In this document: piece after piece, positions 9,585-24,900 of the stretch | Position numbering within the stretch: position 1 is the first letter of the stretch | Layout of the letters: every line of letters starts with the position of its first letter | Virus record (IMG/VR): IMGVR_UViG_3300037722_001090 | Reading direction: 5' to 3' (one strand) | Length of the DNA: 64,000 nucleotides | Source of the DNA: a virus | Taxonomy: Duplodnaviria > Caudoviricetes | Notes under the pieces: model-generated | Database searches by the model: none | The model's input: the letters and a program-made list of their open reading frames with translations, nothing else | What the model was told of the DNA's origin: nothing | Translations under genes and position numbers: made by a program

Positions 9585-9998
9585 ATGGTAGAAATTAAAG
9601 ATACACCTACACAGGTAACTGAAAGCTCATTCTGGGACGAAATCGAATGGTCACAAGTAACGCATAATAAAATTGATAAGGGAGACTTCTTAAGAATAAA
9701 ATCTATTAATAGGAAGTTATATTCAACGTTTCTAGGCCCTGAATCAGGTACACAGTTTTATCTATATAAACCACTCTCTTGGGGCAAGTATAAGGAAATT
9801 AGATTAAAAGGATTAGATAAGGATACTACTCGTGAGTATATTATTAATTCATGTATTCTATGGCCTAACTTAGACCCTATTTCCGTTAGTAATCTCGATG
9901 CTGGGATTATGCTTACATTAACAAATCAAATCCTTACAGTTAGTAATTTCTTAAAAGACCCAGATAAAGCACTCGAACTCATACTAGAGATTGAATAA
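9585..9998 (+). CDS. Tail assembly chaperone 1
   Basis: 137 aa, just upstream of the tape-measure-like gene; pattern YKPLSWGKYKEI...NSCILWP...LDAGIMLTLTNQILTVSNF. Confidence 0.6.
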   Translation: MVEIKDTPTQVTESSFWDEIEWSQVTHNKIDKGDFLRIKSINRKLYSTFLGPESGTQFYLYKPLSWGKYKEIRLKGLDKDTTREYIINSCILWPNLDPISVSNLDAGIMLTLTNQILTVSNFLKDPDKALELILEIE

Positions 9999-10579
9999 TG
10001 GCAAAAAAATATAAAGTAAATGTTGCTGGACATGAAATCATATTTAGAGATATTTATGCTGAAGAGTCTGATAGGTTTATTTGGGCAATAAGGAAGAAAG
10101 ATCCTATAGCTGAAGAGTTAGTATTTAGAGAAATACTTCATGAATCATGTGATATAAATATTGATGAGTTACCAGCAGGAGTAATTCCCACTATAGTCTA
10201 TAGTGCTATTAAGCTTTCTGGTTACTTTCCAAAAGAATCAGACATTCCTAACATAATCGATAATGCAAGGAAATCAATACAGAATAATTTCTTCTCTATA
10301 TTCTATGCGACTATCATTAAGGCACAGCCTTCCTATAGGATAGATGAGTTGCAGAAAAAATCACTAGATGACCTACTTGCAATATATGCATTCAGTGAAA
10401 AGGTATTAGGTAAAGAAACTATTAATACTGATGAGATGCGCAAGACTCTTAAGAAAGAAAAAGAAAAAGAAAAAGGCGTTGCTAAGTCTGCAGGCGGACT
10501 AAGCAGTATTTCTACAGAAGAGCTTGAGTTAGTTAAGAGTATGATTAGTTCCGAAGAATTTAACTCAGAGATGTTTTAA
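9998..10579 (+). CDS. Tail assembly chaperone 2 (paralogue of chaperone 1 with C-terminal extension)
   Basis: 193 aa, TAATG-coupled at both ends. ELPAGVIPTIVYSAIKLSGYF matches chaperone 1; the extra helical C-domain is like the T part of G-T chaperones. Confidence 0.58.
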   Translation: MAKKYKVNVAGHEIIFRDIYAEESDRFIWAIRKKDPIAEELVFREILHESCDINIDELPAGVIPTIVYSAIKLSGYFPKESDIPNIIDNARKSIQNNFFSIFYATIIKAQPSYRIDELQKKSLDDLLAIYAFSEKVLGKETINTDEMRKTLKKEKEKEKGVAKSAGGLSSISTEELELVKSMISSEEFNSEMF

Positions 10580-13500
10580 TGACACAACCAATTAATCCAA
10601 ATCCATTTATATTAGCCATAGATACAGAAGTATCTGGATTACCTACTGACTTTTATGCAACCAGAAGACTTGGTGATCCTATTGATCTTAATATGGATAA
10701 AATCATGAAGTCATTTGGAGCTGTAGATATATTCCAGGTAGGTTTTATAGCTAATGGAAGTAGACAGCATATTGACGTAACAAACGCTAAGCTTGGCACA
10801 CAAGACAACTTATCTTTTGTTATGAAGAAAGATCACAGCTATGTAGGTCCGGATGGAAAGAAGGGTATATATAAGAAGGGTGGAACTGTAACTTCAACCC
10901 GCAACGGGATAACTGACTTTATACGAGGCAAGCACAGTAAGTTATCTTCAAAGCTAGCAGATAAATATGAGAGAGATGCTCTCCCTAGCTTACTTAAGAG
11001 AAGTATGCAAGAAACAGCTGTATTAGATAATGGATCTGTAATACAATCTATGCCTATGAAGCTTAGAAATAAGTCATATGAAGAGACTGCTAAGATTGCT
11101 AATGATAATGGGTTCTTTCATAAAAAAATTAATCAGGCTACTTTTATTTCTAAAAGAGATGACTCATTATATTCTATAATAGACAACCTTCTTGCACATG
11201 GATCAAAAAATTCACCAGCAGAATTTAGAGCTTGGAATCCACAATTTGATGCTAGTGTAATATTGGCTACATTACAAAAATCAGGACATAAAGACTTAGT
11301 AGATAAGTTTATTAATCAATATAAAACTGGTCTATTAAACATACAAGGTATAGAGGATAGTTGGCATAAAGTCTTATGGAAACTCATAAAAGAAAATCCA
11401 GATATTGCAACAACACCAAAAATAGGTATGCATCCAATAGCTGCAGCCGCTACTGGTCGTCCAGGTGCCACTGCAAACACATTTGAGGAGTTTAGACATT
11501 CAACATACAGTTGGAAACAAGACAAGCTAGCTAAGTGGTTCAACTTAAAGAACATTGATCATATTGCATCTACAGACATATTATCCTCTGTAACCTTTGA
11601 TGACATCATGCAAGGTGTAATTAAGAAAGCTGAAAGTGAATCTGGAATGACTTTTGCTCAGCTATTTGATAATCCAAATACTGGCGATTTATTTACCAGA
11701 GCACTTAATTCCAGTATGAACACTATGCATAATAATAACAATACTGGTACCGCAAGAAGACTATTAGGTGAAATAGCAGATGATGCAGCAGCAACACATA
11801 CATTTCATAGAAGAAACTTTGCTAGCTGGTTTGGGTCAGATATTACAACAAGAAGTAGAGCTAAGTGGAGTAAGTATCCTGGTATTATTGGTGCAGCATT
11901 AGTTATAGCTGGTGCTACTTTTTTTGGTAGAGGTGATGAGAAGGTAAGCATTAGTGATGGAAGCGTTGGTAAATCTGGTAAGAATTCTAAGATTGGCAGG
12001 GGCGTAACTGCAGATATGGACACTGATAGTCCGTATATTGGCACAGGCGTAGCTAAGGCAATGTTTGCAGGCATTGTTGTGCCTGGAATTACCATGGCTG
12101 CAGTAGGTTATGGTGCAGCACAAAGACATCCGATGTTAGGTTTCAATCCACAGAAACCAACTACATTTAAAGAGTTATATAAGCAAGGATTAAGTACTAT
12201 TAGATATGGTATTAAAACAGTAGAAGGACAATTCCCTTTAGCTAGGGTTTTTGGTATGGGTGCTATATCTGACTATGTACTAGGTAGTAGAAGCTATTGG
12301 GCAGATGCTGACGGCAATGGTATTGGAAGAACACTCTCTGGTAAAAAAAGACCAGGAAGATGGTTAGCGGCTGAAAGTTATCTAGACGATAAAGGCAAAG
12401 TAGTAAACAAAAATAAACTTATCATGACTGACCTTTTAAAAGATATACGTAAGGCTGATGAGGAATTATTTCATGCTATCGTAAATGGACTGGATCCTTC
12501 TGACATAGGTAAAGATGATGGAGGTAAAGTAGTTGTACGTAAGCAAGTTAGGTTTGCTAATACTACAGGAAGAAATACTATTGTTCAAGTAACTGAAGAC
12601 CATACTATCAATGGCATATATCATAAAGGTACACCATTTAGTAGAACAATTGCTATAGATGCAGCTCTTATGAAAATGAGAGATAGGCCACCTCAGTCTG
12701 CACGCCTAGCTAACAGAACGGTAGTTAATCCATCTAATGGAAAAGTATCACGCATACAAGGTCCGCATGTTACAAGCTCTATTGCACATGAGATAGCAGC
12801 TGGTCAGTTATATAAAAGCGGTAAATATGTAAAACCAGACTACAATGATTATATGAAAAGCTTAGACATGCCAGGATTTGCAAGCAGCAGTGAAATGGGC
12901 AATAAGGCATGGAGAGGTATGGAATTTGTACGTCACTTACTTGATCTAAATGCTAAAGGTGTTGGTGAAAAAAGTAACGTTTTCTATCCAGGCTTATCTC
13001 AAGAACTTGGTAGAGCAACTCATGTATTGTCTAATAGAACAGTTGGTGCATATGCTAAGGGTGCTGGAGATTATTTATTTGGTAATATGGACAAGTTCCT
13101 TGAAAGCCCTTTTGAGTTTTTAGGAGTTAATACTGAAAAGTTTACTGGATTTGCAAACAGACTGAAAGCCTCTAATTATATAACATCCAATATTGCAGGT
13201 AAAGTAATGTCTGCTATTGAAAGACCACATCTTGGTTTAGGATATGCTAGATATGGAAACCCTGCAAAGTACATGGGTGCATTTGCAGCTAAACGTGTAT
13301 TGCCAGCTATGATTGCATATAATGCATTCGGATTAGTAGATCACGCATTAGGTGCTGCAACTATGTCTCCAACTGGTCGTGGACCATTTACTGAGATTCC
13401 AATTAAGGCATTTGAAGCTGCGTCATTAGCTTATACAAAACTATCCGATATAACAGGACTAACTGACTGGGCTAAATGGCAAGATAGAGTAGCTCCTGGA

Positions 13501-16470
13501 TCTACAGGCATTGGTATTATGGCTCCTGCAGCAACAGCTACCGGTCTTTACTTTATGGGTGAAAAAATGTATCAGCATGGACCTGACTTTATCGGAGGTA
13601 CAATAGATAAAGCTGGCAGGAAAATGCTACAGCATCCACTTATGAGGGCTGCAGCTAGGCCTGAAGCGTACAAGGGCGCTTTAGCCCGAGGACCAGTTGA
13701 AAATCTATTGTCTTATGTTATTAAGAATCCAAAGAAAGGAATCTTTGGGTTAGCAATGCTACCATCAATTCCATTTCTACCCGGGTTCTTTGGTTCAGAT
13801 AAGAACTATGCTGAGAAGAAAGCTGAATATAAAGGAGAGAAAGAAGTTGCTATTCGTAAATATCGAGGATGGTTACTATCATCTTCTCCTTTTGAGGGCG
13901 GAAGAGTAAGATCATGGCGTAGACATTCACTAAATCTTATCGAAAGTGATTTTGAAAACAGAGGCGTTGTCTATCCTTCATTCACAGATCGCTTTATGCA
14001 TAATGCATCTCTTGGTATGTATAAACCTAATATACTAGAAGACTACCACGGAGATGCACAGCCCGTATATAAATCCTCTCCTTGGGGAACAAACGTACCT
14101 CTTGTTGGTCCAATTATAGCAGGAACAATTGGCAAGCTAATTGGAACCAAAACATATCACACACCAGGAGAGTATGCACCAAGAGAAGTTCAGGAGTATG
14201 CTGGTGACGGAGCAAACCATGATCAGGAATCTGGTCTATCTAGAAGTGTAGAGATGGGTACAGTCAAGAAGTTATTTGGTGATGATCAGAATAAAACTGG
14301 ATACATGATAGGACTACAGGATCCATCGTCACTTAATTCTTTAGCTTCTAGGTTTGCAGACAGCTTAGGAGACCTATCTGGTTTCCGTGGATTCTCACTA
14401 CAAACAACGTATGAAAAAATGGCAGGCAAGAACCTACCAGATAAATATACACCATATGCACAAGATAGTAGCCAAATGTATAGTCCAGCTGAACAGATGT
14501 GGCAATACAATCTTGGTGATATTACTGTAGTCGGTGGCGAGTTTATGCGTCGTATATTACAGAACTCAGAGAAAAAATGGGAAGTTAACGATATTCCCAA
14601 TGAGTTATTTGGTGTTAGCTGGATTCCTCAAGCCGATGACCAAAGAGGTACAACTAAAGACTTAACTCACGGGACTACCTTTAATAAAGTAGATATGGGT
14701 TGGCTATATGGATCTAGAAAAGGATGGGAATTCTTATATCCAGGAGAAGCAAAAGGAGACATGGAATCCTATAGTGCTCCTCTTAAAACAGAGATTCTTC
14801 AGCAACTAGCTCCTTATTCAGCTAAATTTAATGAAGCAGCTAAAGAGACATACGGTCAAGCTATAGGGGGTCAGTTAAGTCCAAAGCAAGAACAAAGATT
14901 CTATGAAACACTAGATCAAGTATCACAAGTAAAACAACAACTATATGCTACAGCTGGTGAGTATTCATTTGCACTTGATACAGAAGCAGAATCTGGTATT
15001 GTAGATACTGTACAAGATGATGGTTCTTTTAGTATGAAAGGTAAAAACTATAGGCTTGCAGGTGTATCTTTACATGAGGCAGATATAAGAGCTAGGCTTT
15101 TACAAAAGAACGAGTATAATAGTGCACAGGCGCTTGCAGATGATGTAGCATCAATCAGAGAAAGAACTGCTCAAATCATAAGTAAACACTTAGGTCCGGG
15201 CAGAGAGGTTAGTTTTAATAAGGCCACAGCTACTATGTTACCTTCCGAGACAGAGTCTGGTATAGAAGTTCAAATAGATAGCCTTACAGAGGAACTGTGG
15301 AGCGCTGGTGCACCTTTTGCGAACACTGGCAACCTTGCTTCCCATAATATAGCACAAGACAGAGATGGTATTATGAGCAGGGTATCGGCTGCATATTGGG
15401 ATGGGCTTACTGCTACTAACTCTTATTGGAATAAAAAGCTAATATCTAAACGTGACTACTTAGATAATTATACAACTAATCAGGTATATAATAGAGAAGT
15501 TAAACTTTGGACTAGACCTATAGAACATATTGTTAAGCCATTTCTAGCATCTACAGTTCATAATCTTACAGGCATAGATTTCATACCATCATTCACTAAA
15601 GAAAGAAGAGCTAATCAGCAATACTGGGATGTAGTAAAGTATATAAAATATAAAATGTTATCTGGCAGAGCTAAAGATGAAGGTGACATGGAATCGGCTG
15701 CTTTCTTTGAGTCTCAATGGAGAAGCACAATGATTGGTGCTGACCCTACAGATAGTAGTATGAAAGACGTACTTAATGCTCTTCCTGTAAATGAAAGACA
15801 ATATTTTAATAACTTTGCTAATGAACCGGATCCAGAAAAAAGAAAAGAGATCTTTGGGTATTTACCAGAACAAGCAAAGAGACTTTACTCTAGTATATGG
15901 ATGAGGAAAGCTGCAGCTGCATCTAATGACCAGCAACTACTTGCAAACTGGAGTAAGCTTCAAGAATCTGAAGGATGGGATTTATCTGAAGACGAAGAAG
16001 CTGAGTATGCTAATGAAACAGGTGGACGTGCCTCTAAGGCTGATTGGGCTAGAGCTAAGTATGTTCAGTCATATGCACAGAAAAGAAACCTTCCTGGAGC
16101 AGAATGGTCTGGATGGAATGAGAGCGTTGACATAAATAACGTTCAATTATTAGCATTACAAGAAGATGGAGAGAACGTACAAGATTACGGATTCTTCGAT
16201 AGTAATATAAGACAAGCAATTTATGATGATTACGCATATGCCGCCGCTACAAGCTACGAATCAATGTCTGTATCAGCTAATGTAATTATGGGCGATATAA
16301 CACCGATGCTAATGGAAGACTCTGTTATGTCTGCATATGCGACACCGACGTCATCTATGTCACCAATTAGAGAAGTAAATATAGAAACTAATGGCTTTGC
16401 AAGAATACTTGATAAGTTAAACAATTTTGGAAGTGAAATACTAGATGATTATTTTACGGACCCTTACTAA
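10579..16470 (+). CDS. Tape-measure-like giant virion protein with N-terminal DEDDh exonuclease-like domain
   Basis: 1963 aa directly after the chaperones; Ala/Gly-rich with several hydrophobic segments. N-terminal motifs LAIDTE (D15,E17), AWNPQFD (D224) and HIASTD (H328,D333). Confidence 0.7.
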   Translation: MTQPINPNPFILAIDTEVSGLPTDFYATRRLGDPIDLNMDKIMKSFGAVDIFQVGFIANGSRQHIDVTNAKLGTQDNLSFVMKKDHSYVGPDGKKGIYKKGGTVTSTRNGITDFIRGKHSKLSSKLADKYERDALPSLLKRSMQETAVLDNGSVIQSMPMKLRNKSYEETAKIANDNGFFHKKINQATFISKRDDSLYSIIDNLLAHGSKNSPAEFRAWNPQFDASVILATLQKSGHKDLVDKFINQYKTGLLNIQGIEDSWHKVLWKLIKENPDIATTPKIGMHPIAAAATGRPGATANTFEEFRHSTYSWKQDKLAKWFNLKNIDHIASTDILSSVTFDDIMQGVIKKAESESGMTFAQLFDNPNTGDLFTRALNSSMNTMHNNNNTGTARRLLGEIADDAAATHTFHRRNFASWFGSDITTRSRAKWSKYPGIIGAALVIAGATFFGRGDEKVSISDGSVGKSGKNSKIGRGVTADMDTDSPYIGTGVAKAMFAGIVVPGITMAAVGYGAAQRHPMLGFNPQKPTTFKELYKQGLSTIRYGIKTVEGQFPLARVFGMGAISDYVLGSRSYWADADGNGIGRTLSGKKRPGRWLAAESYLDDKGKVVNKNKLIMTDLLKDIRKADEELFHAIVNGLDPSDIGKDDGGKVVVRKQVRFANTTGRNTIVQVTEDHTINGIYHKGTPFSRTIAIDAALMKMRDRPPQSARLANRTVVNPSNGKVSRIQGPHVTSSIAHEIAAGQLYKSGKYVKPDYNDYMKSLDMPGFASSSEMGNKAWRGMEFVRHLLDLNAKGVGEKSNVFYPGLSQELGRATHVLSNRTVGAYAKGAGDYLFGNMDKFLESPFEFLGVNTEKFTGFANRLKASNYITSNIAGKVMSAIERPHLGLGYARYGNPAKYMGAFAAKRVLPAMIAYNAFGLVDHALGAATMSPTGRGPFTEIPIKAFEAASLAYTKLSDITGLTDWAKWQDRVAPGSTGIGIMAPAATATGLYFMGEKMYQHGPDFIGGTIDKAGRKMLQHPLMRAAARPEAYKGALARGPVENLLSYVIKNPKKGIFGLAMLPSIPFLPGFFGSDKNYAEKKAEYKGEKEVAIRKYRGWLLSSSPFEGGRVRSWRRHSLNLIESDFENRGVVYPSFTDRFMHNASLGMYKPNILEDYHGDAQPVYKSSPWGTNVPLVGPIIAGTIGKLIGTKTYHTPGEYAPREVQEYAGDGANHDQESGLSRSVEMGTVKKLFGDDQNKTGYMIGLQDPSSLNSLASRFADSLGDLSGFRGFSLQTTYEKMAGKNLPDKYTPYAQDSSQMYSPAEQMWQYNLGDITVVGGEFMRRILQNSEKKWEVNDIPNELFGVSWIPQADDQRGTTKDLTHGTTFNKVDMGWLYGSRKGWEFLYPGEAKGDMESYSAPLKTEILQQLAPYSAKFNEAAKETYGQAIGGQLSPKQEQRFYETLDQVSQVKQQLYATAGEYSFALDTEAESGIVDTVQDDGSFSMKGKNYRLAGVSLHEADIRARLLQKNEYNSAQALADDVASIRERTAQIISKHLGPGREVSFNKATATMLPSETESGIEVQIDSLTEELWSAGAPFANTGNLASHNIAQDRDGIMSRVSAAYWDGLTATNSYWNKKLISKRDYLDNYTTNQVYNREVKLWTRPIEHIVKPFLASTVHNLTGIDFIPSFTKERRANQQYWDVVKYIKYKMLSGRAKDEGDMESAAFFESQWRSTMIGADPTDSSMKDVLNALPVNERQYFNNFANEPDPEKRKEIFGYLPEQAKRLYSSIWMRKAAAASNDQQLLANWSKLQESEGWDLSEDEEAEYANETGGRASKADWARAKYVQSYAQKRNLPGAEWSGWNESVDINNVQLLALQEDGENVQDYGFFDSNIRQAIYDDYAYAAATSYESMSVSANVIMGDITPMLMEDSVMSAYATPTSSMSPIREVNIETNGFARILDKLNNFGSEILDDYFTDPY

Positions 16471-16483
16471 ACGGAGTTAACAA

Positions 16484-19400
16484 ATGGCAAACAATCCATA
16501 CTATGAAGAAAATAGCGGCTTTGGTAGTGTATTAAAAGGTGCATCTTTTGCTGGCGCAGCTGGTGCATCTTATATGGCATATAAGAACCCTGAAGCTACT
16601 ACCCGTGTATTTAATCGTGTAGTTAATTCTGTTGCACCACTAAAAGCACCTGAGCTTAATCCATATCAAAGCAACATAGTTAGTGCTAGAGAGGCAATCT
16701 TCAGTACTATGGAAGCCAGAAATATACGTAGAGTAGCTTTAGATAAAGATATGCAAGCAAGAGCTTTACAGACAATCGGTAATGTAAATAACTGGGGTAC
16801 TGTAAGTGCTGTAGGTGCTGGTATAAAAGGTGGCAAATCTGATTCATTTAAAAGCCTAACTGATATTCTAGACATAGAAGGTAATGAAATAGGGACAAAA
16901 ATACATAACGCACTAGAGAAGAGATTTAATTCTAAAATCGATGCTCCTAAATTTAGTGGAACAAGAGGAACCTGGAAGATAGCAGGAGAAGATTTGTCTA
17001 TTGATTTCTCTAAAAAAGGACTAGATTCAGGACTAGGAAATTCATGGTTCAAGCGCGTTGGAGAGTCTTATTATGCTTCACCTTATCAGTCTAAAATGGC
17101 TAATCGTGGCGGAGGGAAGCTTGGATATGATGTAATGAGTCCAAATGAATTTGTATTAAATGTGCTACAAGAAGAAAATGCTGGGAGTGGAAGACTGGCA
17201 TATGTAGAGAGTCCTACTAAGTTTAGGAACGCATATGAAAAGGTAATAGGAGAGAAAGTTACTGGACTAAGTGGACATGACGATGCTGTTAAGTATGCTG
17301 TTCAGCAAGTACGTAAAGAAATAGAGTTAGGATCTAATGCTAGTGTTAGCAATGTAAGAACTATGCAAAAGGCTTTAAAGAAAGTATTTAATACAGATAC
17401 TATGTTTGTAGAAACTGACCCAGTAAAGCTTGGCTTATTTGGCAGTGAAGTTCGCGTAGAAGAATATTCTAGATATATACTTGGTAATACAGAACCTGAA
17501 TTTAAAGGTGTAGGTTCAAACCGCGTAGGCAGAAACATGAATAGTCTTACAGGAGGAAGCGTAAACATAGAAGGTAATGCACTTAAAGTAGCATATAATA
17601 TTCCTCATGATGCAAGAACTGATAGTTCTTTAATTAGGATTGTTAATGGTAGTGGCGCTACGTTGAAAAGTAAAAATGCTACATTTATGCAAAAAATGAT
17701 GTCTCTGTTTGGTGGATATAGGCTTGGACAAGATCCTTCATCTGAATTTGCATGGGCTGTTAGACCTACTGTTCTTCCTGTTATTGCGGAAGGAGATAAG
17801 TCTATGAAGGGTGCTTTATGGGCAGATGATAATACCGTTATTAGAAAAAATGGCACTCAGGGTATTTCTATGGGAAAGGAATATTTCAGAGGAACAGGAA
17901 CAAAAAGAATTGAAGCACACAGACTTGAAACATTAAGGCATATGTCTTTTATTGACGACACTAAGATTACTGAAGCTGCTGCTTCAAGCTCAGATTATGT
18001 AAAGGGTAAAATATATTCTCAGCAAAATAAAGGCATTTATAATATGACAATGGCTCTTAACCCGTTTTCTGAAGAGTCTATTCAAGTAAGTTCAGGTATG
18101 AGTAAGCATATGAAAGTTCTTATTCCAAAAACAGCTACTGTGGACACAATTGCACTTAAAGGAGAAGAATCGTATAGGAGGTCGCTACTTACACTAATGG
18201 ATGCAAACGGTGTATTAGATAAGGAATCATTTACTATAAAAGAAATAATGGAAAGTAAAGCTTTATCAGAAAGAGTTAGTACTGGTCAATCCAAAATTAA
18301 GATAGGAAGAGGGACATATCTAGGCAGAAAGAACATAGGTATGGAAATATCTAATGCTGAAGACTTTTACTCTACATTTGAAAGAGACGGAGAGATTATT
18401 AAAGCAAAAGTAGATATGTATATAGACAGTACAGACTTTAATCAAATGGTCGAATCAAATCAAAGAATGATGGGTGAAGGACATAAGCATGCAGGAGGAG
18501 TTAAATATATAGCTAAGGCCATGGATGACCCTGCTAAAGTTGCACTTACTGGTATAAGAGCCCGTGGAGCTTATGCAGTTGGCGATGACGGATTACTTAA
18601 TAGTTTATATGCAAGTGCAGGACTAGGTAATAAGCAAGAAGCTACTATTTCTCTTGGTATGTTTAAAAAAACATTCCCTAAGATTTCTAATAACAGCCTT
18701 CTTCTTGGTAAAGATTCACCTGAACTATTACACTTTACACAATCTGCACTTGGATGGCAATCCTTACAAAGTAGCATGGATATAACATTAAGTAAAAATG
18801 CCGCTGATCATTTTGTCGGTAAATACGTAAATGATGCATCAAAAGTATTAGGCAATCAAGATTATTATACTGGAAGAGGTGCATCTAAAAAGTTTAGCTT
18901 TAGTAAGGCTATGCGAGATGGAGCAATATCTTTTACTCAAAGAACAGAATCAGATGCTGCATTTGCACAGCAATATCAAGACACTGTACAGGTGCTTGGT
19001 ACTGCGCGAAGAGAATGGGGTAATAATCGTAAAGTTGCACACATAGAAAGCTTCTCTACGACTAATGCTAAAGATGCTGCTAAAGTTATAGATAATCAAA
19101 TTGAAGCAATAGACAATATGGGCAAGCTTGCAAAAGGTGAATATGCTGTAAGGCTATTTAATAAACAGGTAGATGCAAAAGAGCTTGGAGAACAAGCCTT
19201 AGTTAGGACAAGAGTATCACAAGGTAGTAGTGCTGGTCTTGGATCGACAAAAGCACTCACAATGGGTATTCTTGGAGGACTTCAACCTCAGGAACAAAAC
19301 TGGCTAGCTCTTGGTGGTGAATTTAATAAGATGCGTATTTCATGGAGAGATATGTATCACTTTACAGACAAGGCAGATATACTAAGAGATATTTCAGTTA

Positions 19401-21973
19401 GAAGCTTAACAGATGCAGATACTAGCGCAACTATGATTAAGCTAATGAGTGACTCTGCTGTAGGGCATAATGTTACTTCTGCTGTTAATGCATTTGAGAA
19501 GAAATATGGTAAAATTCCAAAACTAAAAAAGACAGAAGAGATTTTGGAAATGATAGGTGGTGATGCCGCTATGGTTCCAGGTGCTATTAGAGATCCTGAA
19601 TTCTTAGCAACAAAAAGCTTCTTAGGTAATAAAAAGAATGAGTTCGGTTTTATGGTCGAAATGGGTGAGCGTAATGTTTATATTCCAGGTAGAGATGTTT
19701 GGAAAGGATATGCAACTGATGAGGGGATGGCTACATTTGATTCTTTATTTGCAGAAACTCATAACTTACTTTTGAATAAAGCTCTAGGATCGAACATACA
19801 TCAAGATAGAGATGAGTACCAAAATTGGGTTAAAAGAATAATCAATGAAACAGGAAGCTCAAAAGAAGGACTACAAAGAACAATTTCATTATCTATTGAC
19901 CATGCAGTTGCTGCAAAACATATAGAAGATCCATCGTTTATTCATAATAAAATTATGATTGGTGCTATGGAGAGCTGGAAAGGTAATGCAGACAAGAAGT
20001 TAATTCCTGGATATGTAGCAAAAGCAGAAGCTCTAGAAAATACATTTGGTAATATAGCTAAAATCGGAGAAAAAGATTTTAGTTCAAGTATTAAACAGCT
20101 TATAACTGACACTAAGACAATAGCTAGTAGCCCTGGAAGCAGACAGACAATGCAAGAGGTTCTTACCTCACAATATGGTGAAGATCATTTTCTACAAAAG
20201 TATGCAAATAGGATGAGTGCAAACATGGACAAGGAAGGTGTAGCCAGTCTTGTTAAGGATATTACAACGGATCATGTTGCTAGTAGTAAGCTACTTATGA
20301 GCAAAATAAAAGAATATGCATCAACAGGGAATGAGTCTTTATTTGGAGAGATAGACACGCTTGTAGGAGGTGCACATAAGATTTTTGCCGTTAGACATCC
20401 TACACTTTATACTGGATCTTATTCAGGATTAATAGCTCTTATTGATAGTCAAATTGAAGGAACACAAAAAATAGCAATAGCACACAGAGCTAGTAAAAAT
20501 ATGGCGTCGGACTGGGACGGAGATACAATTAACTATGTTGACCTTAGATCTAAACTGGGAAGACAAAAAGCATTGAATCTTATTAATACGGATCAGAAAA
20601 TTGCATATGGTGTAATGAGTTCTAAAGTGCAAGACAGAATGACTGGAATTTTAACTGGCAAAGGAACTAATGCTCCATCCGAGGCCCTTGCTTTTTTTAA
20701 CTCACTAGACTCCCCTGCAGCACTAAATACAGTAGCTAAAAATATTTTACATGATGCTCCTGGCTCAACAGCTATTTCATCGTATTTTACTAAAGCAATG
20801 ACCGGTCAATTTAATATCTCTGCAATGGAAACAAAAAACTATATAAGAGATTTATCTGATAGTAAAAACTTATCACAAGAGCATATGAAAGAGCTAGGTC
20901 ACTACTTTGGAGTAATGGCATCTAAGAACTCTGAGCAGGAAGTAATCTCAGCTAAGCATGCAGAGACATGGCTTAAGAATATGAACAAAAGTGAAAGTAA
21001 GATGAACTATCTTACTAATTTAATAGGCGCTCAATCTGGACAAGAACAAATAGCGGAGTCTATTAGAGAGCTTGGATCAGTACATCCTATTGCTCAGATG
21101 GCAGCAATGAACGCCAAAGGTAAAGATAATGAGAAGTTTGCTGGTATGGTTTCTGACTTTATGGATTTTAAGGTAGGATGGAAACAGCTTGAGCAGCCAA
21201 GATTCGAAACTATGTGGGAAGGACTAGGTCTTGAAAAATCTCATGGAGTTAATACCTCAGCAGCTTGGGACATGTACGACTCTTGGTTAAAAGAAGGTGA
21301 ACATATTTTTGGTAATAAAATGGAATCTTCTGTTGCCGCTGGTATATCAGAACTCAGCTATTTAGAAGTTACTAAGCAGGCAATGTTTGATAAGAGATCT
21401 TCTGCAAGTGAAAGTATAGAGGCCATGTTTAGCCGTGCATTAGAGTTTATGAAAATGAGCGATAATGATAGGGCTGGAGATGCTGCAATGGGCGTATTAG
21501 ATAAGCTCGGATATAGGAAAACAGCACTACAGATGCTCACTTTACATGAGCAACAATCAAATATGGCACAAGCAACTCGCAAGATAGCTGGCTTTGATAC
21601 AGTATCTAAAGCAGCACAGTGGATGGTAGAAAAACCTGTTAGATTAGCTGGAGCTGTAGGTATTGGCTTATTAGGCATGACTGCAATTAACCTACTAAGC
21701 GGAGATGGTGGCCTTGAAGATCCAAATGATTTACCTAGTGTTAGTAATCCGGCATTTACAGGCGGTGGTGGAAATGGTATGATGAATACACATGGAGTCC
21801 AGCCACACGTAGGCGTAAACGCTAATGTAAACTTATTAACAGACAGTAACGATAATCCACAAAGTGCACTTAGTTACATTTCTAATATGTTTGGCTATAG
21901 TCAGGGCAGCGTTGTATCTGTTATGCATGATGGTGAAAACCCATACAAAAAAGATATGATGTATTATAATTGA
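16484..21973 (+). CDS. Putative single-chain two-barrel (double-psi beta-barrel) DNA-dependent RNA polymerase, probably virion-packaged
   Basis: 1829 aa. Beta-like motifs MALNPFSEESIQVS (E530/E531) and GHKHAGGVKY (K668,K674). Beta'-like motifs FAVRHPTLY (R1304) and HRASKNMASDWDGDTIN (D1343,D1345,D1347). Possible trigger-loop EQEVISAKH (H1492). Confidence 0.8.
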   Translation: MANNPYYEENSGFGSVLKGASFAGAAGASYMAYKNPEATTRVFNRVVNSVAPLKAPELNPYQSNIVSAREAIFSTMEARNIRRVALDKDMQARALQTIGNVNNWGTVSAVGAGIKGGKSDSFKSLTDILDIEGNEIGTKIHNALEKRFNSKIDAPKFSGTRGTWKIAGEDLSIDFSKKGLDSGLGNSWFKRVGESYYASPYQSKMANRGGGKLGYDVMSPNEFVLNVLQEENAGSGRLAYVESPTKFRNAYEKVIGEKVTGLSGHDDAVKYAVQQVRKEIELGSNASVSNVRTMQKALKKVFNTDTMFVETDPVKLGLFGSEVRVEEYSRYILGNTEPEFKGVGSNRVGRNMNSLTGGSVNIEGNALKVAYNIPHDARTDSSLIRIVNGSGATLKSKNATFMQKMMSLFGGYRLGQDPSSEFAWAVRPTVLPVIAEGDKSMKGALWADDNTVIRKNGTQGISMGKEYFRGTGTKRIEAHRLETLRHMSFIDDTKITEAAASSSDYVKGKIYSQQNKGIYNMTMALNPFSEESIQVSSGMSKHMKVLIPKTATVDTIALKGEESYRRSLLTLMDANGVLDKESFTIKEIMESKALSERVSTGQSKIKIGRGTYLGRKNIGMEISNAEDFYSTFERDGEIIKAKVDMYIDSTDFNQMVESNQRMMGEGHKHAGGVKYIAKAMDDPAKVALTGIRARGAYAVGDDGLLNSLYASAGLGNKQEATISLGMFKKTFPKISNNSLLLGKDSPELLHFTQSALGWQSLQSSMDITLSKNAADHFVGKYVNDASKVLGNQDYYTGRGASKKFSFSKAMRDGAISFTQRTESDAAFAQQYQDTVQVLGTARREWGNNRKVAHIESFSTTNAKDAAKVIDNQIEAIDNMGKLAKGEYAVRLFNKQVDAKELGEQALVRTRVSQGSSAGLGSTKALTMGILGGLQPQEQNWLALGGEFNKMRISWRDMYHFTDKADILRDISVRSLTDADTSATMIKLMSDSAVGHNVTSAVNAFEKKYGKIPKLKKTEEILEMIGGDAAMVPGAIRDPEFLATKSFLGNKKNEFGFMVEMGERNVYIPGRDVWKGYATDEGMATFDSLFAETHNLLLNKALGSNIHQDRDEYQNWVKRIINETGSSKEGLQRTISLSIDHAVAAKHIEDPSFIHNKIMIGAMESWKGNADKKLIPGYVAKAEALENTFGNIAKIGEKDFSSSIKQLITDTKTIASSPGSRQTMQEVLTSQYGEDHFLQKYANRMSANMDKEGVASLVKDITTDHVASSKLLMSKIKEYASTGNESLFGEIDTLVGGAHKIFAVRHPTLYTGSYSGLIALIDSQIEGTQKIAIAHRASKNMASDWDGDTINYVDLRSKLGRQKALNLINTDQKIAYGVMSSKVQDRMTGILTGKGTNAPSEALAFFNSLDSPAALNTVAKNILHDAPGSTAISSYFTKAMTGQFNISAMETKNYIRDLSDSKNLSQEHMKELGHYFGVMASKNSEQEVISAKHAETWLKNMNKSESKMNYLTNLIGAQSGQEQIAESIRELGSVHPIAQMAAMNAKGKDNEKFAGMVSDFMDFKVGWKQLEQPRFETMWEGLGLEKSHGVNTSAAWDMYDSWLKEGEHIFGNKMESSVAAGISELSYLEVTKQAMFDKRSSASESIEAMFSRALEFMKMSDNDRAGDAAMGVLDKLGYRKTALQMLTLHEQQSNMAQATRKIAGFDTVSKAAQWMVEKPVRLAGAVGIGLLGMTAINLLSGDGGLEDPNDLPSVSNPAFTGGGGNGMMNTHGVQPHVGVNANVNLLTDSNDNPQSALSYISNMFGYSQGSVVSVMHDGENPYKKDMMYYN

Positions 21974-21980
21974 GGTAGAT

Positions 21981-24900
21981 ATGGCAATTTCTAATAAAGA
22001 GTTTATTGATGTGCTTAAAGCAGAAGGCTTATGGCCACCACAGGCAAATGCTGAAGCAGCATATGGAGCAGTTGAGTTTCCAGTAGGAAAACTTAAAATT
22101 GATGGAGATGCCTCTTTTACATCTATTTATGTAATGGACGGAGATACCATTGAGTTACATAAGCCCGGATATGTATTTAGTACAACAGGAGATCATGGCA
22201 CAGTACCCGCCGAAGGCATGGATGGCATGGCAACCTCTCTTCGTTATTATGGCTTAGATACAAAAGAGACAGCAAAAGAGGGCACAGGTAAAGCTGCAGA
22301 GCCATATGCTAATTGGCAAACTAGGGCAAACTTAGCCTTATTTAAATATGCAGAAAGAACAGGTAAAAATGTTGATGTTACTGGATACAATCAAGATGCT
22401 TACAAGAGAACAGTTGCTGCAATAAATATTGATGGTACGGATGTAGCTGATCTCTTTGTACGAAATGGTATATCTGCCGCAGGTACCGCCGCAGAAGCAG
22501 GCTTTGTACCTGAAGGGGGGATAACTGTTCGCTCACTGCAAGAATCAATGAATGAGGCAGCAACTAAAGGCTGGGGTCTATGGAATAAAAATCAAATTTA
22601 TGATGTCTTAAGAGATGTAAATAAAGAGACTGAATATCTTGATGGTTATATTAATGATCGATTTGGTAAAGCTAAAAGCATGACAGACGATACTGTTAAG
22701 CTTGGAGACGTATATCTTGATATACCTCCTACACACATAAGTATTAATCAGTTAAGAACATCATATTCTACACCACAATTTGGTGGCGAATCAAAGCCAA
22801 CATCTACAAGTACAGCGCGAACAACTATAAAGCTAAACCTTATTTTTAATGGTGAAGACTCAGTAAACGATGATTTTAAAAGAATCTATTGGCAGTTTAT
22901 CTATTGTCCAATTAACTTACTGTATTCAAAAGATATATACGAGAAGGTTGTTTCAGATAATCCTTATATAGCTAGGATGAATACTGCCACAATTAACACT
23001 GAAGAATCGTCTTCTTCTAAGTCATCTTCGTATTTTATCCCTGTAACTATGGATAGTTGGACCGTATATACTATTGAGGGTCATCCAGGGTCTATTGGAT
23101 GTACAATACAGCTATCTATCTTTAACTATTCTGCATACTTTGAAGGTGCAGGTAATGGCGTTGAATACTATACATATAGTGATAATCCAGGAAAGCATGG
23201 TAATGCAGTTAGATACACTAAGCACCTAGAAGAAGCTATTCACCCATATAACCAATATATCATGAAGCACCTCGGTAATAGCATTCAGCACTTTGATGCA
23301 TCAGATAGTCGCACTCTTATTTTTAAGGTTGAAGATAATAAATCTAGATTTGAAGGTAAACAAGAAGATATTAATGAGGATGTTTCAGATTTATCTGAAT
23401 ATCTAAAAGTTATACTTGAATCAGAAGTTGATGAATTAATGGTTAATGGTTCTGTAACTTTTCATAATAACTTTGCATGGTTACCAATTATAGGATATAC
23501 GCAACCAACAGCACAGTATATTGGTCCTGGTGAAACCAATATGTCACTAAGTATTAGAACTAAAAACAATAAAACCATATCAGGACTATTAGCAACATTT
23601 GGTGAAATGGTTCTTGATAGAACTAAACATACATACTATGATGATAGATACTTAGTGTCCAACTCGCTGTCTAGGCTATGTAAGGCTTCTGTTTGTTCAC
23701 TACGTAATATCTCAATTACAAACGTAGATCATCACCCAGGATGGTCCGATATTAATATTCAGCTCTCTAAGTCTTCCTATGCAGATCATCAGGATGAAGT
23801 AAACCCAGCTGCAGAATTTGATGAATATTTTGGACTACAAAGGTTGATTAAAGCTGCAAATGTAGATGAGGTTATGGAGGCTCTTGAAAGAGAACTTAAA
23901 CTAGCTGACATGACAGATATATCTCTTCCTGCAGAAGATGATTTGCTAGGACAAATGTGTATACTCTCTGGTATAATAAATGCACATTCATACATTAGTG
24001 ATGAAGCATACCTTGGGTACAATGAAATACTTTCTAATATACGTGCTTTTAAAGCAACTATTAATGATAAAGACATGAAAGAGCTTGGATTTTCTAAGCC
24101 TCTTATGGGAGACATAAAAAGTCTAGAGGTAAAAGGTACGGACATAATTGATCGTATGTTCATTCAGTCTCTACCTATATCTGTAAAATCTGACCCTAAA
24201 CAAATGAAAGCAATAGTTGATTTCGAAACATACTATAATGCTAAGAAAAAAGCAGGTGTTGTTAATGAATTTGATTCTTTTGAAAGCGCACTTAGAGGAG
24301 ATAATTCTAAAGAGGGTTTTGAATTAAGAGCAGAGATGATAGATAGGTATTTACCTCTTGATGAAATGATAGATATGACAGGTACTAAAAATAAAATAGT
24401 AGATGTAAATAAACACCTATTTAATGCCTGGGAAGAGTATTGGGGAGATAGACATACAGTAAGGTCGCTAAGCAGTGTATATATAAAAGATTTATTAGCT
24501 AGTGGTGTGGACACATCAGTATATGATGAAGAAATGGAAAATATAGTATATAGGATACTTAGATCCATATCTAATGAAGGCATGATGTTAAGTTACCAGA
24601 AGGCTTGGAATCCGCTAGCTCTTTCAATGGCTCGTGGTCATGCAATTGTTTTTAAGTTTACTGGTACAATATTAGAAGCACAAATAATTAAAGCAGCCCT
24701 TAGGGTTGGAGATGAGACATCATCTATAATTGGAGAGGCAGCTAGTTTTGGTACGCATGGATCTAAAGCAAGAAAGTTTTTTAGTTTACAAAACAATGTT
24801 AAATATCCATCTATTTCAGTAAAGTTAACTTGTCATAATAAGGATGTTGCATATAGTGAATATAGCACTAGTATGTCAGAGGCATCAAAAGAGGCATCAT

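What the first reader, a model, noticed from the sequence alone, without database searches (positions are those of the whole stretch)
10579..11600. DEDDh 3'-5' exonuclease domain fused to the N-terminus of the tape-measure-like protein
Seen: all DnaQ-family motifs appear in order with catalytic residues intact: ExoI ILAID-T-E (D15,E17), ExoII AWNPQFD (D224) and ExoIII HIASTD (H328,D333). Established: tape-measure proteins are ejected during infection, and their known enzymatic add-ons are mostly peptidoglycan hydrolases. Inference: an exonuclease delivered into the cell with the genome, for example to trim DNA/RNA ends, degrade defence signalling oligonucleotides, or proofread for the neighbouring RNAP.
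Basis: partly seen in the sequence, partly recalled or inferred. Interest (0 to 1): 0.8.

Follow-up and report, generated by a model that had tools for sequence, protein, structure and literature searches.

The report
Exonuclease domain on phage tail-internal protein
A large uncultured contractile-tailed phage carries an intact DNA/RNA end-trimming enzyme (DnaQ-type 3'-5' exonuclease) at the front of a giant virion tail protein, next to a probable injected RNA polymerase. The phage therefore probably delivers a nuclease into the cell at the start of infection, a cargo I did not find described for such tail proteins.

Summary
Residues 1-~360 of the 1,963-aa ORF (10579-16470, +) fold as a DnaQ-like DEDDh 3'-5' exonuclease (AF2 pLDDT 86.5). 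All 50 listed matches (Z 7.3-11.3) in an all-against-PDB structural search are DEDD-fold exonuclease domains or their inactive homologues; Pol III epsilon gives Z 10.7. D15, E17, N220, H328 and D333 are invariant in 45 relatives, and D224 is D or E. Pfam, PHROGs and PDB sequence searches find nothing, so the domain is unannotated. It carries a ~125-aa insert.

The carrier is only partly as described. It is the homologue of Bacillus phage 0305phi8-36 gp145, a virion protein by mass spectrometry, not of the gene annotated there as tape measure (gp146). Its body models as a globular multidomain protein, not an extended helix. gp145, Acinetobacter phage vB_AbaM_ME3 (ME3) gp035 and other distant relatives lack the domain, so it is an N-terminal add-on placed before the hydrophobic segments.

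The next gene is a two-barrel RNA-polymerase-like giant, and the hub after it starts with a staphylococcal-nuclease domain.

Delivery into the cell and the substrate are inferred, not shown. This scan has already noted DEDDh exonucleases fused directly to tail-module RNA polymerases in other jumbo phages. I saw the same motif pattern in Bacillus phage vB_BceM_WH1 (WH1) gp095.

The parts
10579..16470 (+). 1,963-aa ORF (P0001). Layout: exonuclease domain, helical linker, hydrophobic segments, gp145-family body, SNase-like OB-fold domain, conserved C-terminal region.
   Evidence: Colinear BLASTP to 0305phi8-36 gp145 (E 4e-9 to 2e-4) and to WH1 gp096 (E 1e-12). About 50 relatives.
10579..11646 (+). 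DnaQ-like DEDDh 3'-5' exonuclease domain (aa 1-~356, to the end of the ExoIII helix).
   Evidence: AF2 pLDDT 86.5. VIA Z 10-11 to S. aureus DinG N-domain, Pol III epsilon, ExoI and RNase T. Atlas RNase_T clusters. BFVD DEDDh exonucleases.
10621..10629 (+). ExoI motif, D15-T-E17, on strand beta1.
   Evidence: 45/45 conserved. hhalign places it on DnaQ LDTETTG.
10783..11166 (+). Lineage-specific insert of about 125 aa (aa ~69-196) between beta3 and helix A. It contains a beta-hairpin, three helices and a small sheet, and is poorly conserved.
   Evidence: Secondary structure of the model. Few conserved columns in alignment A1. The distant relative P0052 has a shorter exonuclease domain.
11236..11250 (+). 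ExoII motif, N220-P-Q-F-D224, at the start of the helix after beta4.
   Evidence: N 45/45; D 36/45 and E 9/45. Aligned to RNase T AHNANFD and to DnaQ 8h18 YNIHFD.
11560..11577 (+). ExoIII motif, H328-x4-D333 (the 'h' type).
   Evidence: 45/45 each. It lies at the start of helix 330-355.
11647..11868 (+). Helical linker (aa ~357-430) between the exonuclease domain and the hydrophobic segments.
   Evidence: helices 359-429.
11875..12105 (+). Two Gly/Ala-rich hydrophobic segments (aa 433-450 and 487-509), candidate membrane-inserting helices.
   Evidence: Sequence and hydropathy. In relatives without the exonuclease, the first such segment lies near the N-terminus (gp145 aa 33-51, P0050 aa 54-72).
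14977..15369 (+). SNase-like / Tudor-SN-type OB-fold domain inside the same protein (aa ~1467-1597). No Pfam SNase match; whether it keeps the catalytic residues was not examined.
   Evidence: VIA Z 8.4 (2wac), 8.3 (3bdl), 7.4 (staphylococcal nuclease 1sta). Foldseek prob 0.82-0.87 to SNase. No Pfam hit.
9585..10579 (+). Two small ORFs (137 and 193 aa) in the position of the 0305phi8-36 gp143/gp144 split tail chaperone.
   Evidence: Synteny with 0305phi8-36, ME3 and WH1. No family hit.
16484..21973 (+). Neighbouring 1,829-aa two-barrel RNA-polymerase-like giant (RHPTLY...DWDGD) in the slot of the annotated tape measure. It starts 13 nt after the stop of P0001 and has a GGAG upstream.
   Evidence: Homologues with DxDGD follow the exonuclease-bearing gene in L002, L011 and L012.
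21981..29396 (+). 2,471-aa baseplate-hub-like giant with an N-terminal staphylococcal-nuclease domain (aa 87-202).
   Evidence: PF00565, 26.1 bits (cut-off 21). tblastn to ME3 and WH1 hub/peptidase proteins.

Best explanation
The first ~360 residues of the 1,963-aa protein are a catalytically competent DnaQ-like DEDDh 3'-5' exonuclease (two-metal hydrolysis from a free 3'-OH end) with a ~125-aa lineage-specific insert. The domain is an evolutionary add-on to the N-terminus of a gp145-family virion tail protein, placed just before that protein's hydrophobic segments.

Inferred steps:
- The protein is packed in or at the tail lumen together with the next two giants, an RNA-polymerase-like protein and a nuclease-bearing hub.
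- It is expelled when the sheath contracts.
- Its hydrophobic segments insert into the cytoplasmic membrane at the DNA entry site, leaving the exonuclease on the cytoplasmic side.
- There it acts on 3' ends at the entry point, most likely in concert with the co-delivered RNA polymerase. It could trim RNA 3' ends, or resect the 3' strand of the entering genome end to expose template.

Shown: fold, catalytic residues under selection, homology of the carrier to a mass-spectrometry-verified virion protein, and conserved gene order. Inferred: virion location in this phage, ejection, topology, substrate, and the link to the polymerase.

My odds by layer: genuine active-type DEDDh exonuclease about 0.9; virion-borne and delivered at infection about 0.6; works with the polymerase about 0.35.
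For: Fold:
- AF2 pLDDT 86.5, pTM 0.86.
- All 50 listed PDB matches (Z 7.3-11.3) have the DEDD exonuclease fold. Pol III epsilon: Z 10.7, rmsd 3.1 A over 161 of 174 residues.
- Atlas RNase_T clusters, TM 0.61-0.75 by target.

Selection:
- D15, E17, N220, H328 and D333 are invariant in 45 proteins, and D224 is D or E.
- The exonuclease region is 19-45% identical to relatives, against 31-56% for the body.

Add-on:
- gp145, ME3 gp035, WH1 gp096, P0050 and others lack the domain and start near their hydrophobic segment.
- An exhaustive phmmer search found no stand-alone homologue.

Virion link:
- 0305phi8-36 gp145 was identified in virions by mass spectrometry (record note).
- The gene sits between the tail chaperone pair and the hub, as in 0305phi8-36, ME3 and WH1.

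Polymerase link:
- An RNA-polymerase-like gene with DxDGD directly follows the exonuclease-bearing gene here and in L002, L011 and L012.
- In WH1 the gene in that slot, gp095, carries DEDDh-type motifs and an RYP...ADHDGD motif in one polypeptide (motif level only).

Precedent: P23-45 gp96 keeps a folded N-terminal enzyme (a virion RNA polymerase) on a full-length tape measure protein in virions (PMC10770324).
Against: - There is no experimental or proteomic evidence for this phage. The virion evidence comes from a homologue that shares only short colinear segments (E 4e-9).
- Relatives without the exonuclease (P0050/L007, ME3) still have the RNA-polymerase-like neighbour, so the polymerase does not need the exonuclease.
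- The distant exonuclease-bearing P0052 is followed by small genes, not by a giant.
- The WH1 gp095 exonuclease motifs are not detectably homologous to this domain beyond the motifs (hhalign probability 0.6%), and no Pfam family supports them.
- A folded ~45-kDa domain should not fit a tail-tube lumen, so where it sits in the virion is unexplained.
- Substrate (DNA or RNA) cannot be read from the fold: the nearest structures include both DNases and RNases.
Confidence: 0.5

Rival explanations
1. Delivered attack or counter-defence nuclease that works independently of the RNA polymerase. It would degrade host or competitor nucleic acids with free 3' ends soon after injection: host DNA nicks and ends, mRNA, plasmid or prophage DNA, retron msDNA, guide RNAs, or linear oligonucleotide messengers. 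It would be part of a three-enzyme payload together with the SNase on the hub.
For: - Three consecutive giants each carry a nucleic-acid enzyme: DEDDh, an RNA-polymerase-like motif and SNase PF00565.
- P0001 also holds an SNase-like OB fold.
- The exonuclease region evolves faster than the body, as effector domains often do.
- The exonuclease occurs in P0052 without an adjacent giant gene.
- Phage DEDDh enzymes that degrade host DNA exist; T4 DexA (8kel) is among the structural matches.
Against: - Only a few copies per virion, tethered by hydrophobic segments at one membrane site, are poorly placed for bulk degradation.
- DEDD chemistry cannot open cyclic signals such as cGAMP or cyclic oligoadenylates (established mechanism, own knowledge).
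- No target-recognition domain was identified.
Confidence: 0.25
2. Handler of the phage's own genome end. The domain grips or trims the 3' end of the leading DNA terminus. In the virion it would hold the DNA end at the top of the tail; at entry it would pilot the end through the channel, shield it from RecBCD-type nucleases, or create a single-stranded end for recombination between terminal repeats.
For: - The domain is N-terminal. In tape-measure-type proteins the N-terminus is the head-proximal end, where the packaged DNA end sits (own knowledge of lambda and 80alpha tails).
- It lies next to the hydrophobic segments expected to line the entry channel.
- The related phage 0305phi8-36 has long terminal repeats that hold non-structural genes (PMC2147016).
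Against: - The carrier is not shown to be a tape measure.
- An invariant general-base histidine points to catalysis rather than mere binding.
- The genome ends of this phage are unknown, because the record is a 52%-complete fragment.
Confidence: 0.15
3. Surface enzyme rather than injected enzyme. Together with the hub's SNase it would digest extracellular DNA in biofilm or capsule at the tail tip before or during penetration.
For: - The SNase domain on the hub N-terminus occupies the place where 0305phi8-36 gp147 has a transglycosylase (PMC2147016).
- Staphylococcal nuclease is a secreted, Ca-dependent enzyme (own knowledge).
Against: - DEDDh enzymes are typically intracellular and Mg/Mn-dependent.
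- The domain is on the protein upstream of the hub and precedes membrane-type segments.
- An exonuclease alone is a poor tool against long duplex extracellular DNA.
Confidence: 0.07
4. Not a working enzyme in infection. It would be either a structural or assembly domain that merely keeps the fold, or an epsilon-like replication proofreader that happens to be encoded here.
For: - Many DEDD folds are non-catalytic. Exuperantia, ESRP1 and Maelstrom-type domains appear in the match list.
- No DNA polymerase gene was found in the 108-kb fragment to compare with.
Against: - All five catalytic positions are conserved in 45 lineages while almost nothing else is. Pseudo-exonucleases lose these residues.
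- The domain is covalently joined to a tail-module protein, is translationally coupled to tail chaperone genes, and never occurs as a free protein.
Confidence: 0.05

Closest known systems
DnaQ-like DEDDh 3'-5' exonucleases (E. coli Pol III epsilon 1j53, RNase T 3ngy, Exonuclease I 1fxx, S. aureus DinG N-domain 9ii8, CBASS Cap18 7t2s, Cas2-DEDDh 8fyc)
   Same: Same RNase H-like fold (Z 8.8-11.3). ExoI D-x-E, ExoII N-x3-D and ExoIII H-x4-D occur in the same order and on the same secondary-structure elements.
   Different: - Not detected by Pfam RNase_T or any sequence search.
- Has a ~125-aa insert between beta3 and helix A, so ExoI and ExoII are 207 residues apart.
- Never free-standing: always the N-terminus of a ~2,000-aa (one ~1,650-aa) tail-module protein.
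Thermus phage P23-45 gp96, a tape measure protein with an N-terminal virion RNA polymerase (Chaban et al. 2024, PMC10770324)
   Same: A nucleic-acid enzyme sits at the N-terminus of a giant tail-module protein that also has membrane-type segments. There the enzyme was shown to stay on the full-length protein in virions and is proposed to act at the entry pore.
   Different: - The enzyme here is an exonuclease, not a polymerase.
- The phage is contractile-tailed.
- The carrier is gp145-like and models as globular, not as a demonstrated length ruler.
- The RNA-polymerase-like protein is a separate downstream gene.
Bacillus phage 0305phi8-36 gp145 (virion structural protein), with WH1 gp096 and ME3 gp035
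   Same: Homologous body and C-terminal region, colinear. Same gene position between the split tail chaperone and the giant gene that precedes the hub.
   Different: These proteins lack the exonuclease domain and begin close to the hydrophobic segment.
Tape measure proteins with embedded peptidoglycan hydrolase domains (e.g. T5 Pb2, mycobacteriophage TM4 Tmp; own knowledge)
   Same: An enzymatic add-on on a tail-internal protein that leaves the virion at infection.
   Different: Those enzymes act on the cell wall and the carriers are bona fide length rulers. Here the enzyme acts on nucleic-acid 3' ends and the carrier's ruler role is not supported.
Coronavirus nsp14 ExoN, a DEDDh exonuclease that works with a viral RNA polymerase (own knowledge), and phage T4 DexA (8kel)
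   Same: They show that viruses use DEDDh enzymes either to assist a viral polymerase or to degrade host DNA. These are the two leading functional readings here.
   Different: There is no specific sequence or structural affinity beyond the common fold. Neither is a virion tail component.

Membership tests
DnaQ-like DEDD(h) 3'-5' exonuclease superfamily | RNase H-like alpha/beta fold with a five-stranded sheet | tested here: met
   AF2 model with pLDDT 86.5. All 50 listed PDB matches (Z 7.3-11.3) have the DEDD exonuclease fold. Atlas TM 0.61-0.75 by target to RNase_T clusters.
DnaQ-like DEDD(h) 3'-5' exonuclease superfamily | ExoI D-x-E, ExoII (N)-x3-D and ExoIII H-x4-D, with all four acidic residues and the histidine present | tested here: met
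   D15, E17, N220, D224, H328 and D333 are present. They are invariant in 45 relatives, except D224, which is D or E. They align in register with DnaQ and RNase T motifs.
DnaQ-like DEDD(h) 3'-5' exonuclease superfamily | The five residues converge on one two-metal site in 3-D | tested here: inconclusive
The residues sit on the canonical elements (beta1, start of the helix after beta4, start of the last core helix). The end points of the alignment to epsilon are in register with D12/E14 and H162/D167.
DnaQ-like DEDD(h) 3'-5' exonuclease superfamily | Metal-dependent 3'-5' exonuclease activity | not testable with these tools
   Needs a biochemical assay.
Pfam RNase_T (PF00929) | Score above the gathering cut-off of the family HMM | tested here: not met
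   No hit even at E <= 10 for aa 1-360 or 1-420, for any of the 19 aligned members at E <= 1, or in a six-frame scan of the 108-kb record. This shows sequence divergence, not a different fold.
Phage tape measure protein | Gene placed after the tail chaperone pair and before the hub | tested here: met
   It directly follows the chaperone-position ORFs. However, a second giant gene lies between it and the hub. In the P0052 contig the homologue is the only giant after the small chaperone-sized genes, with no giant gene directly following it.
Phage tape measure protein | Match to a TMP sequence family (Pfam PhageMin_Tail, TMP_2/3, Tape_meas_lam_C; PHROG TMP families) | tested here: not met
   No Pfam family at E <= 1 and no PHROG at E <= 0.01 for the whole protein.
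Phage tape measure protein | Mostly extended alpha-helical or coiled-coil body whose length sets tail length | tested here: not met
   aa 431-1600 model as a compact mixed alpha/beta multidomain body (pLDDT 74.6, pTM 0.64) with several beta-sheet domains. The tail length of this phage is unknown. In 0305phi8-36 the ruler role was assigned to the next gene (PMC2147016).
Phage tape measure protein | Hydrophobic, membrane-type segments | tested here: met
   aa 433-450, 487-509 and 1054-1072.
0305phi8-36 gp145-type virion protein family | Colinear sequence similarity of body and C-terminus, plus the same gene position | tested here: met
   Four colinear BLASTP segments to gp145 (E 4e-9 to 2e-4). 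Three to WH1 gp096 (E 1e-12 to 1e-9). tblastn to ME3 gp035 (E 1e-8). Synteny.
0305phi8-36 gp145-type virion protein family | Presence in purified virions | not testable with these tools
   Known only for 0305phi8-36 gp145 (mass-spectrometry note in the record) and from the annotated 'virion structural protein' labels in WH1 and ME3.

The most novel reading that the evidence does not exclude
The exonuclease is the dedicated partner of the tail-delivered two-barrel polymerase. The pair would form a polymerase-plus-3'-5'-exonuclease machine assembled at the DNA entry pore, analogous to nsp12/nsp14 in coronaviruses or PolD DP2/DP1 in archaea. It would proofread or rescue the first transcripts, or strip one strand of the entering genome end so that a factor-less polymerase can start without promoter melting. 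The recurrent joining of DEDDh domains to tail-module polymerases in other jumbo phages would then reflect a general, undescribed requirement of injected cellular-type RNA polymerases.
Probability: 0.15. Interest if true: 0.85.

Novelty: new variant of a known kind. Interest (0 to 1): 0.62.

Why it matters
Known enzymatic cargo of phage tail-internal proteins is almost entirely cell-wall hydrolases, with one recently described RNA polymerase. An intact exonuclease, conserved in about 45 diverged jumbo-phage lineages and invisible to Pfam and PHROGs, adds a nucleic-acid-degrading activity to what a contractile tail may deliver.

Its constant placement next to a probable injected RNA polymerase and a nuclease-bearing hub points to a coordinated enzyme payload at the moment of DNA entry. 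That stage of infection is poorly understood, particularly for jumbo phages.

The hypothesis is directly testable: assay the 1-430 fragment, and mutate D15/E17 in any cultured relative. The domain also gives annotators a new signature, since these ~2,000-aa proteins are currently all labelled 'hypothetical'.

Tried and rejected
- **crAss-like phage:** my first guess from the three giant ORFs. Rejected: tail sheath and Baseplate_J hits show a contractile-tailed phage of the 0305phi8-36/ME3 type.
- **Sequence searches of aa 1-420:** Pfam, PHROGs, PDB phmmer and tblastn against 50,697 phage records found nothing. A profile of 19 relatives against the PDB gave only a sub-threshold DnaQ hit at ExoII (E 0.3).
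- **hhalign of the family profile against single E. coli DnaQ and RNase T sequences:** aligned only the motifs, at low probability. I used these for register, not as evidence of homology.
- **Foldseek against the PDB:** only marginal E-values (2e-3) to T4/RB69 polymerase N-terminal plus exonuclease regions. The exhaustive VIA search was the informative one.
- **Stand-alone ancestor of the domain:** none found by exhaustive phmmer over 1.84 billion representatives.
- **Specific relationship to the exonuclease-type motifs of WH1 gp095:** not supported (hhalign probability 0.6%; no Pfam hit).
- **Homologues of the neighbouring polymerase-like protein:** the word-index search returned only itself and tblastn against phages returned nothing. 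I took homologues from neighbouring genes on relatives' contigs instead.
- **ESM Atlas feature search of the body:** no usable hit.
- **Structure search of the body model:** only the SNase-like domain matched. Other parts were barely tested because the model is 1,170 residues long.
- **DNA polymerase genes in the record (to weigh a replication role):** none in the 108-kb, 52%-complete fragment, so uninformative.
- **No complex prediction was run,** because I do not claim a physical interaction.
Full report
**What is there.** The window belongs to a 107,910-bp viral record estimated to be 52% complete, so the genome is about 200 kb. The finding lies at the start of a 1,963-codon ORF (10579-16470, +). 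Its ATG overlaps the stop of the upstream gene as TAATG.
- FILAIDTEVSG, with D15 and E17
- FRAWNPQFD, with N220 and D224
- DHIASTD, with H328 and D333

**Is it an exonuclease?** Sequence methods see nothing. Pfam, PHROGs, phmmer against PDB sequences and tblastn against 50,697 phage records all come back empty for residues 1-420. A six-frame scan of the whole record with RNase_T (PF00929) is also empty.

An exhaustive phmmer search of 1.84 billion representatives found 18 relatives. Sixteen are 1,940-2,114 aa long; the other two, of 555 and 859 aa, look like fragments. A search with the conserved core (aa 1040-1460) raised the family to about 50 clusters.

In an alignment of 19 N-terminal regions, eight columns are invariant: M1, D15, E17, N220, G236, L269, H328 and D333. 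Over 45 full-length members aligned to the family HMM:
- D15, E17, N220, H328 and D333 are 45/45.
- D224 is D in 36 and E in 9.
- Only W219, E259 and L269 also reach 90%.

So the DEDDh pentad, plus the ExoII asparagine, is what selection preserves. Meanwhile the domain as a whole has drifted to 19-45% identity.

An AF2 model built on this alignment is confident (pLDDT 86.5, pTM 0.86). An alignment of the model against 48,161 PDB representatives gave a top-50 list made up entirely of DEDD-fold exonuclease domains, including a few inactive homologues of the fold:

| Match | Z |
|---|---|
| S. aureus DinG N-domain | 11.3 |
| Pol III epsilon (rmsd 3.1 A over 161 of 174 residues) | 10.7 |
| Exonuclease I | 10.6 |
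| RNase T | 10.2 |
| Cap18 | 9.6 |
| Cas2-DEDDh | 8.8 |
| T4 DexA | 7.8 |

The ESM Atlas search returned RNase_T clusters with TM 0.61-0.75 by target. BFVD returned viral DEDDh exonucleases. Foldseek against the PDB was marginal.

The catalytic residues sit on the canonical elements: ExoI on beta1, ExoII at the start of the helix after beta4, and ExoIII at the start of the last core helix. The end points of the epsilon alignment (model 10..346 to chain 7..180) are in register with epsilon D12/E14 and H162/D167. Motif-level hhalign and HMM alignments agree.

I could not read coordinates, so I did not measure the site geometry directly.

One unusual feature is an insert of about 125 residues (aa ~69-196: a beta-hairpin, three helices and a small sheet) between beta3 and helix A. 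It is poorly conserved. The distant relative P0052 has a shorter version of the domain (hhalign 90.8%, E 1.2e-6).

**What is the carrier?** The phage is contractile-tailed: a sheath at 3200-5935 and Baseplate_J at 30602-31816. Gene order matches the 0305phi8-36 / ME3 / WH1 group:
1. sheath
2. tube and tube paralogue(s)
3. two small chaperone-position genes
4. giant 1
5. giant 2
6. hub giant

Giant 1 here is homologous to giant 1 in those phages:
- four colinear BLASTP segments to 0305phi8-36 gp145 (E 4e-9 to 2e-4)
- three to WH1 gp096 (E 1e-12 to 1e-9)
- a tblastn match to ME3 gp035 (E 1e-8)

gp145 was found in virions by mass spectrometry (record note). [quoted passage not shown]

No TMP family matches P0001. 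Its residues 431-1600 model as a compact mixed alpha/beta multidomain body (pLDDT 74.6, pTM 0.64), not an extended helix. The only recognisable piece is an SNase-like / Tudor-SN-type OB fold at aa ~1467-1597 (Z 8.4 and 7.4).

'Tape-measure-like' is therefore supported only by position and by hydrophobic Gly/Ala segments (aa 433-450 and 487-509). One point does favour a ruler role: in the contig of the distant relative P0052, the gp145-type gene follows the small chaperone-sized genes and only small genes directly follow it, so no second giant sits beside it. I leave the ruler question open and describe the carrier as a gp145-family tail-internal virion protein.

**The exonuclease is an add-on.** gp145, ME3 gp035, WH1 gp096, P0050/51 and P0053-57 have no such domain. 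Where I examined the N-terminus (gp145, P0050, and by eye WH1 gp096 and ME3 gp035), the protein starts close to its first hydrophobic segment. In every full-length member with at least 39% core identity, and in P0052, the domain sits in front of that segment. No free-standing homologue exists in the searched universe.

**Neighbourhood.** Thirteen nucleotides after the stop, behind a GGAG, starts a 1,829-aa ORF. It carries ...VRHPTLYTGSYSG...ASDWDGDT.... hhalign places this in register with the E. coli beta' segment RAPTLHRLG...NADFDGDQ (thin profile, motif-level evidence).

Homologues of this ORF, with DHDGD, DFDGD or DYDGD, directly follow the exonuclease-bearing gene in three other contigs spanning the family. 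An earlier follow-up in this scan (e1-5409414) reports that it confirmed this ORF as a single-chain beta-beta' RNA polymerase. I tested that only to the extent stated here.

The third giant begins with a staphylococcal-nuclease domain above Pfam's cut-off (26.1 bits against 21). It also matches hub/peptidase proteins of ME3 and WH1.

**Link to the polymerase.** Earlier scan notes describe DEDDh exonucleases fused directly to tail-module two-barrel polymerases in other jumbo phages. I followed this lead in an annotated genome. Bacillus phage WH1 gp095 (2,515 aa, giant 2, annotated 'virion structural protein') has:
- FFDIEN, GQNINTYD and HMALQD at aa ~108-370
- RYP...ADHDGD at aa 1996
- a weak RNA_pol_Rpb1_2 hit (E 0.09)

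This is motif-level evidence only. Pfam finds no RNase_T, and the tools do not allow folding of that protein.

The WH1 motifs are not specifically related to the domain studied here (hhalign probability 0.6%). If the WH1 domain is real, the two architectures would then be independent recruitments of a DEDDh enzyme to the same payload: on giant 1 here and on giant 2 in WH1.

Against an obligatory partnership:
- Relatives without the exonuclease keep the polymerase-like gene (L007: RHP...GDYDAD; ME3 gp036: REP...GDHDQD).
- P0052 has the exonuclease but no adjacent giant gene.

**Mechanism.**
- *Shown:* a DEDDh fold with its active-site residues under purifying selection, fused upstream of the hydrophobic segments of a homologue of a verified virion tail-module protein, in a conserved three-giant block.
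- *Established knowledge:* DEDD enzymes remove nucleotides from a free 3'-OH by two-metal catalysis. Tail-internal proteins with membrane segments leave the virion and are thought to line the entry channel. P23-45 gp96 shows that a large N-terminal enzyme can remain on such a protein in virions (PMC10770324).
- *Inferred:* the protein is expelled on contraction, its hydrophobic segments insert into the cytoplasmic membrane, and the exonuclease acts on 3' ends at the entry site.

I rank the possible roles in this order:
1. Cooperation with the co-delivered polymerase (RNA 3'-end trimming, or 3'-strand resection of the incoming end).
2. Attack on host or competitor nucleic acids.
3. Handling or protection of the phage's own leading DNA end.
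4. Extracellular DNA digestion.
5. A non-catalytic or replication role.

Degradation of cyclic immune signals is unlikely, because those molecules have no free 3' end. A folded ~45-kDa domain would not fit a tube lumen, so its place in the virion is an open problem.

**Novelty.** Full-text searches found no description of a DnaQ-type exonuclease on a tail-internal or tape-measure protein. The searches combined 'tape measure protein' with 'exonuclease domain' or 'nuclease domain', polyvalent proteins with exonuclease, virion/DEDDh/ejection, and two-barrel virion RNA polymerase with exonuclease. The polyvalent-protein survey (PMC5512222) has no hit for 'DnaQ', and 'exonuclease' occurs only once, in its reference list. 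The jumbo-phage survey (PMC7824862) mentions an exonuclease domain only in the context of DNA polymerases.

The enzyme class and the idea of enzymatic cargo on tail-internal proteins are both known. I therefore rate this a new variant of a known kind, not categorically new. It also repeats a theme this scan has already met on other DNA.

Noticed in passing
window 16484-21973 (+): 1,829-aa ORF in the tape-measure slot. It has a beta'-type R-H-P-T-L-Y ... D-W-D-G-D motif (aa ~1300-1347), in register with E. coli rpoC NADFDGD. Homologues with DxDGD follow the exonuclease-bearing gene in L002, L011 and L012. It has hydrophobic Gly/Ala segments at both ends.
   Followed up: partly
window 22239-22586 (+), within ORF 21981-29396: The N-terminus of the 2,471-aa hub-like giant holds a staphylococcal-nuclease domain (PF00565, 26.1 bits, cut-off 21). 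0305phi8-36 gp147 has a transglycosylase in that place. The C-terminal third matches hub/peptidase proteins of ME3 and WH1 and PHROG 'endolysin'.
   Followed up: partly
window 14977-15369 (+), aa ~1467-1597 of the same ORF as the finding: SNase-like / Tudor-SN-type OB-fold domain (VIA Z 8.4, 8.3 and 7.4; Foldseek prob 0.82-0.87 to staphylococcal nuclease). No Pfam SNase hit, so it may be non-catalytic.
   Followed up: partly
relatives P0053, P0054, P0004, P0042 (proteins; L008:1675-7758 for P0053): Several family members are interrupted by selfish elements: inteins with LAGLIDADG/PT-HINT (P0053, P0054) and DUF559/MTES_1575 'very-short-patch-repair endonuclease'-type inserts (P0004, P0042).
   Followed up: no
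L009:10593-18140 (-), Bacillus phage vB_BceM_WH1 gp095: The 2,515-aa 'virion structural protein' in the tape-measure slot shows DEDDh-type motifs (FFDIEN, GQNINTYD, HMALQD, aa ~108-370) and RYP...ADHDGD at aa 1996. This looks like an exonuclease-polymerase fusion in a cultured, annotated phage. It is unrelated by BLAST to 0305phi8-36 ORF146.
   Followed up: partly
L003:18173-22984 (+), Acinetobacter phage ME3 gp036; L004:19996-27609 (+), 0305phi8-36 ORF146: ME3 gp036 ('hypothetical protein', giant 2) has REPAQG...GGDHDQD at aa 1217, a possible two-barrel polymerase motif. 0305phi8-36 ORF146 (annotated 'hypothetical tape measure') has no DxDxD motif at all. The occupant of this slot therefore differs between related phages.
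   Followed up: no
window 9585-9998 and 9998-10579 (+): Two small overlapping-boundary ORFs (137 and 193 aa) in the position of the split, non-frameshifted G/GT-like chaperone described for 0305phi8-36 gp143/gp144. No family hit.
   Followed up: no
protein P0025 (cluster member named by NCBI): A partial family member is binned in a 'Tenuifilaceae bacterium' MAG (Bacteroidota). This is a weak hint at the host range of the clade, or a mis-binned phage contig.
   Followed up: no
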